DNA of 64,000 bases from the human T2T-CHM13v2.0 reference genome, Homo sapiens, in NCBI RefSeq assembly GCF_009914755.1, contig NC_060931.1; one strand, 5' to 3'. Both the position numbers and the translations under genes were made by a program. Under the pieces are notes generated by a model. It saw nothing but the letters and a program-made list of their open reading frames with translations, had not been told where the DNA came from and did not search any database. Positions 20,730 to 40,916 of the stretch are shown here, piece by piece (position 1 is the first letter of the stretch; every line of letters begins with the position of its first letter).

Positions 20730-21420
20730 CTACCCGCGACCCTGCTCAAGCCCCGGGCCTTCTCATCCGACAAAGCAGCGGATTAGACGCGGTTCTCTAG
20801 GTCAGGCCCTCAGGTAACTCAACCACACAAAGCAAGCACACACAAACATCAGATGTCAGAACCTGGAGAGGAGGAGCAATGCGGCAGGGGGATGCGGGAC
20901 CCAAGCGCAGAGGAAAATCACCAGCAGAAATACGGACACAAAGGGGATTCTCTGTCCCCGATGATTTCTGATTTCGGCACACCCAGACCCACGGCGCACC
21001 CATCGCGCCCCGCACCCCCGCCCCGGCCTCCCGCCCTGCCCTCCCCCCCGCAGCACCCAGGCCGAGTCCACCGTTGCTGGCCCCTTCTCCAGCCTGCCAG
21101 GCTTTTGGAGAGGGCCACTCACCAGGTCACCCTGCGATTTCCACGGGGGCAGGTGGGAGCGGGCAGAGCCTGGCGCAGAGAGGAATGCACAGGGAAGAGG
21201 CTTCCCTGTACCAGTGACTGGGCGACCGAGCCGGGATTTGGGAGCGGGGAGGAGGCTGGAGCTGGAGGAGAGGAGGGGTTTCCACGGGAGTCCCCTCCTC
21301 CCCACTTCCTCCCAGGCTGGAGTGGGAGCTCCAGGGGGCGGCGCTTGGCGGGGGACAGCGCTTCTTTGTGTCGCCGGCCCTGGTGGCTTGGCATTGCTGT
21401 GGCTTAGGGACGCCTGGAGA
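20730..21420 (-). promoter_or_regulatory. CpG-island promoter P3 with GC box GGGGGCGG (21334-21341)
   Basis: High CpG/GC content; similar to P1 and P2. Confidence 0.75.
21123..21300 (-). other. TCAF1: TCAF1 alternative non-coding first exon (P3); 5' end approximate
   Basis: Donor CTG|gtgagt at 21123/21122, ATG-free, inside a CpG island, GC box at 21334-21341. Confidence 0.68.
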
Positions 21421-21869
21421 CCCCATCCTGGCAGTGTGGACGGCTGTTTCATTAAAGATACAAACTTCTCTGACTCTACATTAGTAAGGGAAAGGCTGAG
21501 CAAATTGTGGGACAAACATTCTGCTTAGTATTATTCAGTTCTTAGGAAGAGCTTGAATCTCCATTTAGTCGGTGAATATACCGTGATATATTGCCAAGGG
21601 GAAAATACAAATTGTAGAAATTGTTGAATATGCTTTTGTTTTTATAGGAAAAACAAACCCCGTATATATTTGTATTATGGTGGGGAGAAGGGAAGGCTAC
21701 ATTTCTACCCATTAATATTGTTTAACTTGAGAAATAGGAGAGGTGCAACTTTTTATATAACTCTGCACTGTTTGCAGTTACGTGTCTTACTTTTGTAAAT
21801 TAAAAATAATATACAGTTCAAACAATAGTTAACCAAAATGTATTTTTCGGTGTACAGTTCAAATCGCAT

Positions 21870-22193
21870 TTCTTTCTTTCCTTTTTCTTTTTCTTTTTTT
21901 TTTTTTTTTTTGAGACGGAGTCTCGCTCTGTCGCCCAGGCTGCAGTGCAATGGCGCGATCTCGGCTCACTGCAACCTCCGCCTCCCGAGTTCAAGAGATT
22001 CTCCTGCCTCAGCCTCCCAAATAGCTGGGATTACAGGCGCCCGCCATCACGCCTGGCTAATTTTTTTATTTTTGTAGAGACGGGATTTCACCATGTTGGC
22101 CAGGCTGATCTCAAATCACTGACCTCAAGTGATCCGCCCGCCTCGGCCTCCCAAAGTGTTGGGATTACAGGCGTGAGCCACCATCGTGCCCGC
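21870..22193 (-). mobile_element. AluS, full length
   Basis: Poly-T followed by gagacggagtctcgctctgtcgcccaggctg...gggattacaggcgtgagccacc. Confidence 0.93.
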
Positions 22194-22309
22194 TCCCCAT
22201 TTCTTTCCTTTATGATATCAGCTGAGAGCTGCTCCTCTCTCTTGTGTATGTGGCCACTTCACCTTTCTCACAGGTGCTGGCTCCAGCATGGGAAATGCAG
22301 GGTGGTGAC

Positions 22310-22550
22310 AGGGACCCAGACTAAGTGGACTGGATTCAAATCCCAGAGCTACACTTTACCAACGGTGTGACTTTGGGGAAGTTACCTAATTCCTCTGTGC
22401 CTCAGTGTTATTACCTATACAACGGGGATGAGAAAAGTAATACCTATACTAAGCCTTATTATAAGGCTTAAGTTAGGTGAGTTTATGCTTGTAAAGTTCT
22501 TGAATCAATGTCTGGTATACGGTAAGACTGGATGAGTGCCTCATAAATAA
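22310..22550 (+). mobile_element. MIR SINE
   Basis: ggattcaaatccca...gtgactttggggaagttacctaattcctctgtgcctcagt. Confidence 0.8.
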
Positions 22551-37491: not shown

Positions 37492-38539
37492 CAGAGTTGA
37501 TCCATTATCAATCAGAATTCCAACAGGTTTATTTGCTTGTTTGTTTCTTGTTTTGGAGAACTTGATAAGTTTATTTAAATATTTATATGGAAGGTCAAAG
37601 GTCCAAGTAAAGCTAAAACACTCTTAAAGAAGAAGAAACAGGTGATAGGACTTTTCCTACCAAATTTCAAGGCTTTTAATAAAACTATAGTGGTTAAAAA
37701 TTATTTAGTATTGAGGCAGAGTTAGACAAATAGAAAATAAGAATGGGGGCTTAAAACGAATTCATGCTTATATGGAAATCCTGATTCATGCAAATCACTG
37801 GTGCTGGGGCAACAGATTATCCATATGGAATAAACAACATAAAAATCAGTTTCCATGTGGATTAAGACTAATTGCCAAAGGCAAAACTATAACACTTTTA
37901 GAAAACGATACACTAAAATTAATCTATGATCTTGAGAAAACAATTATCAAACAAGAAAAGCTATAAAAGAAAGTACTACTAACTTGAAATTAAATTCAAA
38001 ACTTAGATTCATTGATAGAAACAGAGAAAGAAACAGATATAAAGACATAGAGAGAAAGAAAACCTCAAAAGCAAATTGGAAAGATGTCTGTGGCATATAT
38101 AGCTAACAATTACTGCTTCGTACCCAGATTATATAAAGAAAGCATTCCAATGAGTCAATAAAAAAGGTAAACAAACAATCCAATACAAAAATGAAAGAGA
38201 CAGGAATCAGAATTTCACAAAGAGAAAGCACTGATCAACATATAAAAAGTCAATCTCATTAGTTATGGAAAATGCTAGTTAAAATCACAGTTAAATGCTA
38301 TTTCATACCTGCCAGACTGACAAAAAATGTAATTTTACAAGACTAAGCTGTGGCAAGCATGTAGAGCAACAAGAATGCTCATCCACTGCTGGAGGGAGTG
38401 CAAACTGGTTTAACACTTTGGAAAGTTTAGAAATGACCCAATAAAATTGAATACACATAAATCTTATAACTCCGCAATTCTACTCCCAGCTATATACTCT
38501 AGGGAAGCTCCCACACAAGTGTACTTGAATATTAGAGGA

Positions 38540-39108
38540 CATGGGCAGGCTTTAAAGTGGCCCCGATAATCCCTGCCTCCAGGTGTTCATGTCCTTGTGT
38601 CACCCCCTTCCCTTCAGTGTGAGTTGGGCCTAGGGACTCACTTCTAATGAATATAAAATGGCAAAAATAATGGGATGTCGCTTCTGAGGTTACAGAAAGA
38701 ATCTGACTTCTGTCTTTCTCTTTTTCTCTGTGGGAGCCTTCTCTCTGGGGGGAGTAAGCTGCCATGTTGCAACCATTCTTTATACAGAGGCCCATGTGGC
38801 AAAGAACTGATGTGTACAGCCAGGGTCAGTGAGGCCAATCGGCCTGCCAGCAGTCATGTGAGTAAGCCTGGGAGAGGTCCTCGACCCTACGCCTAGCCTT
38901 GAGATGACTGAGGCCCAGTCAATACCTTGATTGTTGATACAGCTTGTGAGAGACCCTGAGTCAGAGACTCCCAGCTAAGCCCCTCCTGGATTCCTGATCA
39001 CAGAAACTGTAAGATAGGAGGTAACAGGACTTGTTTTGTTTGTTCGCTTTGGTTTGAAGCTGCTAGGTGTTGGGGTAATTTGTTACATAGCTTATAGATA
39101 AATCATAC
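38540..39108 (+). mobile_element. MaLR solo LTR (MLT1E/F-like)
   Basis: ggccccgataatccctgcctcc...gaggcccatgtggcaaagaactga...cagaaactgtaagata...ggggtaatttgttac. Confidence 0.82.
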
Positions 39109-39849
39109 ACCTCCAAAAGTAGAAACAATCCAATGTCCATCAGCAGTAGAATGGATAAATTATGTACATTTACACCTTAAATGACGAAAACGAAAATGGA
39201 AGGAAGCATGAAAGATGAATCTATAAAACTTAAGAATACGTACAGGATAATGTCATTAATATAATGTCATTATAATGAGAAAGCCAATACATATGTTTTA
39301 GGAATACACACACAAATATGGTAAAACTAAAAAGAAAAGCAAGGGATTCATTAAATTAAGACAAAAATCACGAAAGATGTCACATCTCAGAGAATGGAGG
39401 AGAATGGACCATGGGCATCAGTTGGGACTCATGGGCTTCTAAGGTACTGTGACGCCCTATTTCTTGACCCAAGGAGATGGTCAGGCATTCGTTTCATTAT
39501 TTTTTAGACCATTCTGAGATATTTCATTTACTTTTTATTCAACATTTTAAAACAAAGTATTGAAACCAATTCATCAACAAATCACTAGTTTGGAGGATGA
39601 AAGTGATGGACCGATGGTTGGCTGGTCAGCTAGACAGACACATTCTGTCCTTTACGTCTAGTTCGAGCTGTACTTCTTCTAAATTTCCATGATTATCCAA
39701 TTGGCAAAGATCTTTTTCTCCTGTACTTAAGGCCTTCTTCCGTTGCAGGTTGGGCCAAACTAGCGGCCAGCTCTCGGCTGTTTACCAGGGAACTGTATCA
39801 CCCAGCACTTGCTGCTTCAGGCCAAATGCATTCCAGACTAACATTCAGC

Positions 39850-40700
39850 CTGAATCCCCGCGCCGCTCTCACCGCCACCCCTCCCCAGGTCCCTTCCCCC
39901 ACCACAAACCCACACTGCGCCCGTGGGCGCCTAGAGCACTGGGGTGGATGAGAACTTCCACCTGGGCTTAACGGAGACAAGCTAGCCTAGAAGAATGCAA
40001 GCCCCCAGCTGGCGAGATCAAATCGCCTCGAGGGTTCCTGCTAGCTCAGATCTTAATGGCTCCTTGCGGAGCAAAAAACAAATCCTACGAAAATAGGGGG
40101 GGTCATCGCCTCCTGCCCAGCAGAGGGCATAACAATGCGGCGAGAATGAAATAGGCACCGAGCTGCAGAGAAAAATCATCAACGGGGTAGAGACGAAGGA
40201 AGGGATCCTCGGTGGAACGGCTCTATCACCTGGGGGCGCGCGCAGAGGCCGCAATCCACGCCCGGCCCTCCCCAGACGCTAAACGTCGCACCCCGCCCAC
40301 CGCTCCCCGCCCCGGACACTAACCCGGGGCCCAGGCCTCGGTCACCGCGGGCCTCTCCTGGTCCAGAGTCTACGCTGAACCCCACTCACTGTTTGCCCCG
40401 CTGTTCCCTGCAGCGCGGGTTCGGGGCAGTAGCAACCTGCTAGGAGCGGGAGGCGGTTGTTCCCAGAAGGAAGCAGCTTCTCCGCCCAGGAGGCAAAGGG
40501 CAGCGGGCTCGAAACTGCAGGACTTGGAAAGTCTTAGGCGGAGACTGCGGGGGTGGGGGGTGGTGAGGAGGGGCCTTCCAGGGAGCTGATTGGTCGACGC
40601 GGACGGGGGCGGGACTTGGCCGGCGCCGTCCCTCCCCTAGACCTCAGAGGCCCTGCCCGCAGATGTGGCGCCAAATCCCGGATGCAGGCCTAGGCGCCAG
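39850..40700 (-). promoter_or_regulatory. CpG-island promoter P1: CCAAT box (ATTGG on +, 40589-40593) and GC box (GGGGGCGGGAC, 40605-40615)
   Basis: High CpG/GC content in an AT-rich background; motifs read directly. Confidence 0.85.
40390..40560 (-). other. TCAF1: TCAF1 distal non-coding first exon (P1); 5' end approximate
   Basis: In a CpG island, ATG-free, donor ACA|gtgagt at 40390/40389, about 200 nt downstream of a CCAAT + GC box. Confidence 0.8.
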
Positions 40701-40916
40701 CCCAGGAATATAGGGAGCAAATTGTTAAGAACAAAACAAAACAAAACAAAAGTGAGAATACTTCTGAACAAGTGACGGCCTTGATAAATAGCGAGAGATG
40801 TTTATATAAAATAATACAGGACTATTTTTAAGGACGAGTGAAATCTATCGGTTCTAGCTATAGTTTTTAATTAAAAAAGCAAGTTGTATTAAAATGGAGA
40901 GTAGGATCTCTCTTTC

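What the first reader, a model, noticed from the sequence alone, without database searches (positions are those of the whole stretch)
20870..40850. TCAF1's three candidate promoter/first-exon modules are paralogues of each other
Seen: the modules at ~20870-21450 (P3), ~23270-24040 (P2) and ~40130-40850 (P1) share colinear anchors in the same orientation. (a) Intronic block caatgcggc...gcagag(g/a)aaaatca...ggga(t/t)(t/c)ctc at 20877-20952 vs 40133-40210. (b) A gtgagt donor at 21122, 23597 and 40389; after it P1 has ggaccaggagaggccc and P2 ggaccagagcaggccc, while P2 has tccaaagctgg and P3 tccaaaagcctgg. (c) GG(G/A)GGCGGnnCTTGGC at 21334, 23801 and 40605, each 200-215 nt from its donor. (d) ctttgtgtc, tggagaccc and tgtttca shared by P2 and P3. 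(e) gataaata...aaaataata..actattt..aagga.g..t.aaatcta shared by P1 and P2. All three exons lack ATG and would splice to the acceptor at 14994. Inference: an ancient tandem multiplication of one promoter+exon-1 cassette gave a variable-first-exon array (UGT1A/protocadherin-like layout, but non-coding) feeding one protein. I do not know of a description of this for TCAF1.
Basis: partly seen in the sequence, partly recalled or inferred. Interest (0 to 1): 0.8.

Follow-up and report, generated by a model that had tools for sequence, protein, structure and literature searches.

The report
Three ancient copies of TCAF1's promoter
The main promoter of the human TCAF1 gene, a second promoter inside its first intron and a third decayed stretch nearby are very old, strongly diverged copies of one 0.7-kb promoter-plus-untranslated-first-exon unit, an ordinary way for a gene to gain an alternative promoter.

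Summary
Three ~0.7-kb modules (P3 20875-21562, P2 23330-24060, P1 40110-40870) lie in one orientation and are diverged paralogues.

- **P1 vs P2:** 191 of 301 columns identical, nhmmer E 1e-27.
- **P3:** matches P1 (E 1e-8) and a P1+P2 profile (E 4e-14, 45 bits) over its full length. No block shuffle reached this (0 of 300 at each of four block sizes). The best of 20 unrelated CCAAT/GC-box loci scored 0.0 bits.
- **Weak points:** P2 vs P3 is undetectable on its own. The exon is the least conserved part.
- **Uniqueness:** each module is single-copy in the 3.1-Gb assembly at BLAST level. TCAF2's promoter is not detectably related. No TCAF coding relics lie between the modules.

Best reading: an ancient local DNA duplication of a CpG-island promoter, its ATG-free first exon, the splice donor and proximal intron. 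P1 and P2 are annotated first exons that splice to the same acceptor (14994), so both give the same protein. P3 has lost the CCAAT box, has no annotated transcript and is probably a relic. The UGT1A/protocadherin comparison fits the layout only, because no protein diversity results. This is a new member of a known kind and of modest interest. The age and order of the copies need other mammals' genomes, which these tools do not hold.

The parts
40110..40870 (-). Module P1: the main TCAF1 CpG-island promoter, first exon and proximal intron. It is the least diverged copy and resembles both others.
   Evidence: Annotated exon 1 at 40324-40539 or 40390-40539 (hub). CpG-island-like stretch 40051-40800. 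nhmmer to P2 E 1.4e-27 and to P3 E 1.4e-8.
40581..40620 (.). P1 core: GGGAGCTGATTGG (a CCAAT box on the TCAF1 strand), 11 nt of spacer, then the GC box GGGGGCGGGACTTGGC.
   Evidence: Lies inside the RefSeq 'silencer' 40560-40699 (hub). NF-Y and Sp1 binding are inferred from recalled consensus motifs and were not tested.
40324..40539 (-). P1 first exon. ATG-free, with two donors: GTTAGT at 40323 (selected transcript) and GTGAGT at 40389 (other transcripts).
   Evidence: Hub annotation.
40133..40213 (.). P1 intronic block shared with P3.
   Evidence: 65.9% over 82 columns to 20877-20955. nhmmer on this segment: 3.1 bits, reached by 0 of 300 shuffles.
40644..40847 (.). P1 upstream region shared with P2, including the AT-rich block 40783-40847.
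   Evidence: Alignment. The 28-place motif with 22 fixed bases, TAAAATAATANNNNACTATTTNNAAGGA, matches exactly only here and in P2 in the whole assembly.
23330..24060 (-). Module P2: intragenic CpG-island promoter with an alternative first exon. It is bidirectional.
   Evidence: Exon 23598-23758 of other TCAF1 transcripts and lncRNA LOC105375549 starting at 23851 (hub). CpG-island-like stretch 23301-24000. nhmmer P1 to 23495-24048. The left 165 bp (23330-23494) were placed by global alignment only.
23777..23816 (.). P2 core: identical GGGAGCTGATTGG, 11 nt of spacer, then the GC box GGAGGCGGAGCTTGGC.
   Evidence: The combined motif occurs only twice in 3.1 Gb, at P2 and P1.
23598..23758 (-). P2 first exon. 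ATG-free, donor AGG|GTGAGT at 23597.
   Evidence: Hub annotation.
23851..23938 (+). Exon 1 of the divergent lncRNA LOC105375549, 93 bp from the P2 TCAF1 start site. It lies in the stretch best conserved with P1 (40644-40735).
   Evidence: Hub annotation.
20875..21562 (-). Module P3: the third and most decayed copy, probably a relic.
   Evidence: nhmmer E 3.8e-14 to the P1+P2 profile, with 0 of 300 shuffles reaching it at each of four block sizes. No annotated exon (hub). No CCAAT box.
21334..21349 (.). P3 GC box GGGGGCGGCGCTTGGC.
21117..21122 (-). P3 donor-like site CTG|GTGAGT, aligned with the P1 and P2 donors.
   Evidence: Its use is not shown.
14361..14994 (-). Common second exon: acceptor at 14994, start codon at 14980.
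   Evidence: Hub annotation.
24168..25200 (.). Block B2, next to P2. It is a paralogue of B1 (18793-19890) and contains lncRNA exon 2. Whether it belongs to the duplication history is uncertain.
   Evidence: nhmmer E 1.8e-26. Single-copy elsewhere at BLAST level. Only its local partner was found in 272 kb.
20144..20876 (.). Block C, abutting P3. It is an inverted paralogue of 43072-43961, which lies beyond P1. Whether it belongs to the duplication history is uncertain.
   Evidence: nhmmer E 7e-27 and 3e-13. Its only other match in the genome is that local partner.

Best explanation
A ~0.7-kb piece of genomic DNA was copied locally, long ago, to give three copies in the same orientation. The piece held a CpG-island promoter, its untranslated first exon, the GTGAGT donor, about 250 bp of proximal intron and about 250 bp of upstream sequence.

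P1 (40.1-40.9 kb) is the main promoter and has changed least. P2 (23.3-24.1 kb) is still an active alternative promoter and is bidirectional: TCAF1 exon 23598-23758 runs one way and lncRNA LOC105375549 starts 93 bp away in the other direction. P1 and P2 keep the same core: a CCAAT box (CCAATCAGCTCCC on the gene strand), 11 nt of spacer, then a GC box. I infer, without a test, that this core binds NF-Y and Sp1-type factors.

Both first exons lack an ATG and splice to the acceptor at 14994, 14 nt before the start codon. The two promoters therefore change regulation and the 5'UTR, not the protein. P3 (20.9-21.6 kb) has lost the CCAAT box and most of its CpGs on the promoter side, and no transcript is annotated there. 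It is most likely a decayed copy, possibly retained as a regulatory element.

Shown: the paralogy, the motifs, the splice signals, and uniqueness in the genome at BLAST level. Taken from annotation: use of P1 and P2. Inferred: factor binding, the age and order of the copies, and the inactivity of P3.
For: Paralogy:
- P1-P2: 191 of 301 columns identical, Smith-Waterman 63 against a null maximum of 23, nhmmer E 1.4e-27.
- P3 to P1 E 1.4e-8; P3 to the P1+P2 profile 45.7 bits, full length.
- 0 of 300 block shuffles reached this at each of four block sizes.
- The 20 control loci with the same CCAAT/GC-box arrangement scored at most 0.0 bits.
- In 272 kb of the TCAF cluster only the three modules hit the profiles at E<0.1; the two TCAF2-type CpG islands did not hit.

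DNA-level copy: the homology runs from intron through exon and promoter into upstream sequence.

Not a dispersed repeat:
- Each module matches only itself in the 3.1-Gb assembly (apart from one 40-bp low-complexity hit). The same search finds 26 dispersed copies of a MIR-like piece at 22325-22476.
- The CCAAT..GC-box motif occurs 2 times genome-wide against 0 for the reversed control.
- The upstream motif with 22 fixed bases matches exactly only at P2 and P1.

Same protein: the exons are ATG-free, the donors are as listed and the acceptor is shared (hub annotation).

P1 as hub: in the three-way alignment P1=P2 at 163 columns, P1=P3 at 121 and P2=P3 at 111. P3 is nearer P1 on the intron side (60 vs 39 columns). 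P2 is nearer P1 upstream (65 vs 27).

Age:
- The best P1-P2 block is 191 of 274 aligned pairs. That is a Jukes-Cantor distance of about 0.39, which I worked out by hand.
- TCAF1-TCAF2 fourfold sites are 52 of 87 identical, JC 0.58. That duplication is placed in early mammals (PMC4284226, passages read).

Literature: an intragenic CpG island overlapping a putative alternative TSS of TCAF1 is hypermethylated in prostate cancer (PMC5351588, passages read).
Against: - P2 and P3 are not detectably alike on their own. Local Smith-Waterman scores for P3 fall inside the shuffle range.
- P2's intron side and the exon bodies show no significant similarity. For P2 the 'cassette' is demonstrable only from about 23495 rightwards.
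- No homology extends into the flanks. A tandem event with a defined unit and junction is therefore not shown.
- Blocks B (direct) and C (inverted) show that other pieces of the locus were also copied, in an order that one simple tandem model does not explain.
- No transcript data, CAGE data or other species were available. The use of P3, the relative use of P1 and P2, and the age of the copies are all untested.
- The whole-genome search detects only about 72% identity or better. A very old low-copy repeat family would escape it.
Confidence: 0.65

Rival explanations
1. All three modules are working promoters, forming a regulated variable-first-exon array with tissue-specific choice among three non-coding first exons.
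For: P3 keeps a consensus donor at the aligned position (CTG|GTGAGT), an ATG-free stretch and the GC box. Its intron side is still CpG-island-like.
Against: No exon is annotated at P3 (hub). The CCAAT box shared by P1 and P2 is missing. The promoter side fails the CpG-island test. P3 is the most diverged copy.
Confidence: 0.15
2. P2 and P3 are orphaned promoters of lost TCAF gene copies. Whole-gene tandem duplicates formed, their bodies were later deleted, and TCAF1 captured the leftover promoters and first exons.
For: The TCAF family did expand by tandem gene duplication in mammals (PMC4284226, passages read). The divergence of the modules is in the same range as TCAF1-TCAF2 synonymous divergence. 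Extra local paralogous blocks B and C exist.
Against: tblastn with 571 aa of TCAF1 finds no coding relic between or around the modules; the best other hits have E 0.81 and 1.5. TCAF2's own promoter shows no similarity to the modules above shuffle nulls. P3 and P2 are only 2.5 kb apart.
Confidence: 0.12
3. The modules are three copies of an ancient low-copy mobile element or other imported sequence that was exapted as promoters.
For: The homology has fairly sharp ends with unrelated flanks. The genome search cannot see relatives below about 72% identity.
Against: No dispersed copies of any module were found, whereas a MIR-like piece gives 26. With up to 2 mismatches the diagnostic motif gives 36 hits against 21 for the reversed control, and exact matches only at P2 and P1. 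All three copies share one orientation within 20 kb. P1 is the gene's main promoter.
Confidence: 0.05
4. Chance, base composition, or convergence of unrelated CpG-island promoters on the same CCAAT/GC-box grammar.
For: The CCAAT + GC-box arrangement is common: 114 genome matches against 12 for the reversed control. The exon bodies are at noise level.
Against: Shuffling within blocks as small as 10 bp abolishes the P3 score. The 20 loci with the same grammar score at most 0.0 bits. P1-P2 similarity extends 250 bp into AT-rich sequence.
Confidence: 0.02

Closest known systems
[quoted passage not shown] PMC1885805 and PMC3325998, abstracts seen in the listing.
   Same: Paralogous first exons in a row, each behind its own promoter, spliced to common downstream exons.
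   Different: In those clusters the variable exons encode part of the protein and create isoform diversity. Here they are short, ATG-free 5'UTR exons and the protein is identical. There are only two annotated members plus one apparent relic, the copies are very diverged, and the exon itself is the least conserved part.
Genes with alternative promoters and non-coding first exons, regulated by intragenic CpG-island methylation. Maunakea et al. 2010, seen only as a reference in PMC5351588; the TCAF1 case is in PMC5351588.
   Same: An intragenic CpG island with an alternative TSS. Its methylation is proposed to shift use between TSSs (PMC5351588, passages read).
   Different: In such genes the alternative promoters are not usually described as copies of each other. 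Here they are paralogues. I infer that the island in that paper is P2; its coordinates are in a supplementary figure I did not see.
Bidirectional CpG-island promoters driven by CCAAT boxes and NF-Y. PMC1802594, abstract seen in the listing.
   Same: In P2 the divergent start sites are 93 bp apart and flank a CCAAT box and a GC box inside a CpG island.
   Different: No divergent transcript is annotated at P1. NF-Y binding was not tested.

Membership tests
Variable-first-exon cluster (UGT1A / protocadherin type) | A row of paralogous first exons, each with its own promoter | tested here: met
   The modules, including their promoter regions, are paralogous. Promoter activity is known from annotation for P1 and P2 only.
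Variable-first-exon cluster (UGT1A / protocadherin type) | Each variable exon is spliced to the same constant exons | tested here: inconclusive
   P1 and P2 exons join exon 14361-14994 in RefSeq transcripts (hub). The donors and the acceptor were verified in sequence. For P3 there is only a donor-like site, and no RNA data were available.
Variable-first-exon cluster (UGT1A / protocadherin type) | The variable exons encode a variable part of the protein | tested here: not met
   There is no ATG in any of the four exon versions. The start codon is in the common exon at 14980.
Alternative promoters with non-coding first exons | Two or more start sites with distinct first exons feeding one coding sequence | tested here: met
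   Hub annotation (40324/40390-40539 and 23598-23758) together.
Bidirectional CpG-island promoter | Divergent start sites less than 1 kb apart within a CpG island | tested here: met
   P2: 23758 (-) and 23851 (+) per the hub annotation; CpG island. For P1 no divergent transcript is annotated.
Bidirectional CpG-island promoter | Occupancy by NF-Y and Sp1 | not testable with these tools
   Only the motifs were seen. The consensus sequences are recalled.
Interspersed repeat (transposable element) family | Dispersed copies elsewhere in the genome | tested here: not met
   with the positive control. The sensitivity limit is about 72% identity, and no Dfam library was available.
Human-specific TCAF segmental duplication | Near-identical copies elsewhere in the cluster | tested here: not met
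   The modules are single-copy. Only TCAF2-type and 3' TCAF1-type exons are duplicated.

The most novel reading that the evidence does not exclude
P1 and P2 form an ancient duplicated promoter pair that works as a toggle. When P2 fires bidirectionally, its divergent lncRNA (LOC105375549, 23851-40316) is transcribed antisense through the whole P1-to-P2 intron. It ends 8 bp from P1's first exon and interferes with P1. Methylation of P2, as reported for an intragenic TCAF1 CpG island in prostate cancer, would release P1. The conserved AT-rich upstream block and the identical CCAAT/GC core would have been kept for over 100 million years because both copies are needed for this switch.
Probability: 0.1. 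Interest if true: 0.5.

Novelty: new member of a known kind. Interest (0 to 1): 0.3.

Why it matters
The finding explains where TCAF1's intragenic alternative promoter came from. That promoter lies in the only sizeable intragenic CpG island I found in the window. It is probably the island whose methylation has been proposed as a prostate-cancer marker (PMC5351588).

It also shows which parts of the cassette were kept under constraint. These are the CCAAT/GC core with fixed 11-nt spacing, a ~60-bp AT-rich upstream block, the donor, and an intronic block. The exon was not kept. These are concrete targets for reporter and CRISPR tests.

More generally it is one more example of an alternative promoter born by duplication rather than by de novo origin or a transposon. 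It changes nothing about the TCAF1 protein and is not surprising in kind.

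Tried and rejected
1. **Coding relics of a lost TCAF copy.** tblastn of 571 aa against the window found only the real exons and their internal repeat.
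2. **TCAF2's promoter as a fourth copy.** There was no hit in 40 kb upstream of TCAF2 and of its duplicated copy or in the 272-kb cluster scan. A weak hit (E 2.5) was not above shuffle nulls.
3. **Homology beyond the modules.** None was found on the intron side. On the right, one apparent extension, 22271-22671 vs 42313-42684, contains a MIR-like dispersed repeat at 22325-22476. The other was nhmmer running on from neighbouring Alus.
4. **A 44-bp perfect match** between block C and its inverted partner is a (CA)n microsatellite.
5. **A coding-like period-3 mismatch pattern** in the conserved block 23849-23908. The counts were 5, 10 and 4 of 19, which I do not judge significant.
6. **A fourth module or a third B block.** None was found anywhere in the window.
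7. **Rfam.** No family reached threshold in the window.
8. **Pfam on long six-frame translations.** I computed open stretches but did not submit them, because old repeats would hardly score.
9. **Whole-genome profile search.** The tool takes neither DNA alignments nor RNA models for this genome, so only BLAST-level and pattern searches were done.

Full report
**What was checked.** The window is human chr7 (T2T-CHM13). TCAF1 lies on the minus strand.
- The word GGRGGCGGNNCTTGGC occurs exactly three times in 64 kb (21334, 23801, 40605). None of 100 shuffles gave a match.
- These sites lie 212, 204 and 216 nt from a minus-strand GTGAGT donor.
- The four exon versions (40324-40539, 40390-40539, 23598-23758 and a putative 21123-21330) contain no ATG. 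The acceptor CAG|AAACC is at 14994 and the start codon at 14980.
- Apart from an Alu, the only CpG-island-like stretches in the window are at the three modules: 20851-21150, 23301-24000 and 40051-40800.

**Is the similarity more than chance?**

For P1-P2, clearly yes.
- The local alignment of 23755-24040 with 40559-40847 has 191 identical of 301 columns.
- It scores 63, against block-shuffle nulls of mean 15.0 and maximum 23 in 200 shuffles. The reversed sequence scores 15.
- BLAST E is 1e-22 and nhmmer E is 1.4e-27.

For P3 the picture is mixed but in the end positive.
- Pairwise local Smith-Waterman scores (19 and 20) fall inside the shuffle range, and P2 vs P3 gives no nhmmer hit.
- nhmmer does align P3 to P1 over nearly the whole length (20875-21553 to P1 positions 22-731, E 1.4e-8). 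It aligns P3 to a P1+P2 profile at 45.7 bits, E 3.8e-14. The next hit in the window is at E 4.8.
- Shuffling P3 within blocks of 10, 20, 40 or 80 bp keeps the local composition profile. It gave at most 2.7 bits, and 0 of 300 shuffles reached the real score at any block size.
- As natural controls I took the first 20 listed genome loci carrying the same CCAAT-then-GC-box arrangement. Most are CpG-rich. Their best score against the profile was 0.0 bits and against P1 was -1.3 bits.
- In 272 kb spanning the TCAF cluster, only the three modules hit the profiles at E<0.1. The best other hit was E 0.18, and the two TCAF2-type CpG islands did not hit.

**Where the similarity sits.** A three-way MAFFT alignment gives low global identities: P1-P2 52%, P1-P3 47%, P2-P3 45%.
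- P1 is the hub. P2 resembles it in the core promoter and about 250 bp upstream (59 of 91 and 136 of 218 pairs). P3 resembles it on the intron side (139 of 259).
- The exon bodies are at noise level (51 of 138, 57 of 140, 60 of 131).
- Tested segment by segment, the P1-P2 exon parts and P2's intron side give no hit. The upstream P1+P2 profile still finds P3 at 13.8 bits, with 0 of 300 shuffles reaching it.
- What has been kept is therefore regulatory sequence and the donor, not the 5'UTR exon.
- P1 and P2 share an identical 13-mer GGGAGCTGATTGG (CCAAT on the gene strand) exactly 11 nt from the GC box. That combination occurs only twice in the 3.1-Gb assembly, at P2 and P1, and 0 times for the reversed control.
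- P3 lacks the CCAAT box.

**Repeat or local duplication?**
- The window's own assembly could be searched. Each module matches only itself, apart from one 40-bp low-complexity hit.
- The same search does find 26 dispersed copies at 72-90% identity of a MIR-like piece at 22325-22476, and many copies of a repeat at 27773-28876.
- The P1/P2 upstream motif with 22 fixed bases matches exactly only at P2 and P1. With up to 2 mismatches it gives 36 hits against 21 for the reversed control.
- The search cannot see relatives below about 72% identity, and a profile search of the genome was not accepted. A very old low-copy family is therefore unlikely but not excluded.

**Relation to the TCAF family.**
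- tblastn with the 571 residues encoded in the window finds no coding relic between or around the modules.
- TCAF2's promoter island (chr7:144979601-144980650) and its duplicated copy show no similarity to the modules above shuffle nulls.
- The first coding exons of TCAF1 and TCAF2 are 142 of 206 residues identical. Their fourfold sites are 52 of 87 identical, JC 0.58.
- The best P1-P2 block has 191 of 274 aligned pairs identical. That is about JC 0.39, worked out by hand.
- Gkika et al. place the TCAF1/TCAF2 duplication early in mammalian evolution (PMC4284226, passages read).
- The module copies are therefore very old, in the same range as that split or somewhat younger. Promoter constraint and CpG effects make this only a rough statement, and dating needs other species.

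**Surroundings.**
- No homology extends into the flanks. Apparent extensions involve a MIR-like repeat and neighbouring Alus.
- Two further blocks are paralogous only within this locus.
  - B: 18793-19890 vs 24168-25200, direct, E 1.8e-26, 57.5% identity. It lies next to P2 and holds lncRNA exon 2.
  - C: 20144-20876, abutting P3, vs 43961-43072, inverted, with a shared (CA)n.
- Their order does not fit one simple tandem model, so the duplication history was more complex than three cassettes in a row.
- At least 40% of the 16 kb between P2 and P1 is repeated elsewhere in the window. I infer that later insertions inflated the spacing.

**How it most likely works.** P1 and P2 are CpG-island promoters with the same CCAAT/GC core. 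Binding of NF-Y and Sp1-type factors is inferred from recalled consensus motifs.
- P2 is bidirectional. The TCAF1 exon starts at 23758 and lncRNA LOC105375549 starts at 23851 (hub annotation).
- Both first exons splice to 14994, so they give the same protein under different control.
- Strand et al. report that an intragenic TCAF1 CpG island overlapping a putative alternative TSS is hypermethylated in prostate cancer. They suggest this favours the upstream TSS (PMC5351588, passages read; the figure with coordinates was not seen).
- P2 is the only sizeable intragenic island I find, so I infer it is that island.
- P3 looks like a decayed copy.

**Novelty.**
- Of the papers listed for TCAF1 with 'promoter' (61 held both terms; the top 20 were shown), none described the paralogy. 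A second search paired TCAF1/FAM115A with alternative promoter, first exon or TSS terms. Among its top 15 listed papers, only Strand et al. holds a gene name together with such a term.
- Arrays of paralogous variable first exons are well known for UGT1, protocadherins and GCNT2 (PMC1885805 and PMC3325998, abstracts).
- This case shares their layout but fails the defining feature of coding variable exons.
- It is a new member of a known kind, an alternative promoter born by duplication, and of modest interest.

Noticed in passing
window 14361-14980 and 1173-2167 (minus strand): The two large N-terminal coding exons of TCAF1 are paralogues of each other. Residues 9-197 vs 217-406 are 35.8% identical, E 2e-31. 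This is an internal domain duplication. Neither exon matches any Pfam family.
   Followed up: partly
window 18793-19890 and 24168-25200: Block B is a ~1-kb direct paralogous pair (E 1.8e-26, 57.5% identity). It has no other copy in 272 kb or, at BLAST level, in the genome. One copy sits 108 bp from P2 and contains exon 2 of LOC105375549.
   Followed up: partly
window 20144-20876 and 43072-43961: Block C is an inverted paralogous pair with a shared (CA)n tract. One copy abuts P3 and the other lies 2.2 kb beyond P1. The only other match of the 20144-20876 copy in the genome is its local partner.
   Followed up: partly
window 17141-17643: This stretch of TCAF1 intron 1 resembles TCAF2 intron 1 (chr7:144981030-144981392, E 2e-4) and its duplicated copy. 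The orientation relative to the gene is the same, and the distance from the first coding exon is about 2 kb in both. It may be a non-coding relic of the TCAF1/TCAF2 duplication or a conserved intronic element.
   Followed up: partly
window 23851-40316 (+): The annotated lncRNA LOC105375549 starts in P2 and ends 8 bp from the P1 first exon (40324). It runs antisense to the whole P1-to-P2 intron (hub annotation). Transcriptional interference is possible but untested.
   Followed up: no
window 27773-28876: A dispersed repeat with many ~80%-identical genome copies is interrupted by an Alu at about 28381-28658.
   Followed up: no
whole assembly (G000): CTGATTGG followed 6-20 nt later by GGGGCGG occurs 114 times against 12 for the reversed control. 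A CCAAT box beside a GC box is a common promoter arrangement and is not evidence of relatedness on its own.
   Followed up: yes
chr7:144953428-144953988 and 145113602-145114204 (outside the window): The assembly holds duplicated TCAF exons: a second copy of the TCAF1 exon-3 equivalent and a second TCAF2-type first coding exon, with scores identical to their partners. This is consistent with the known human TCAF segmental duplication. The three modules are not part of it.
   Followed up: no
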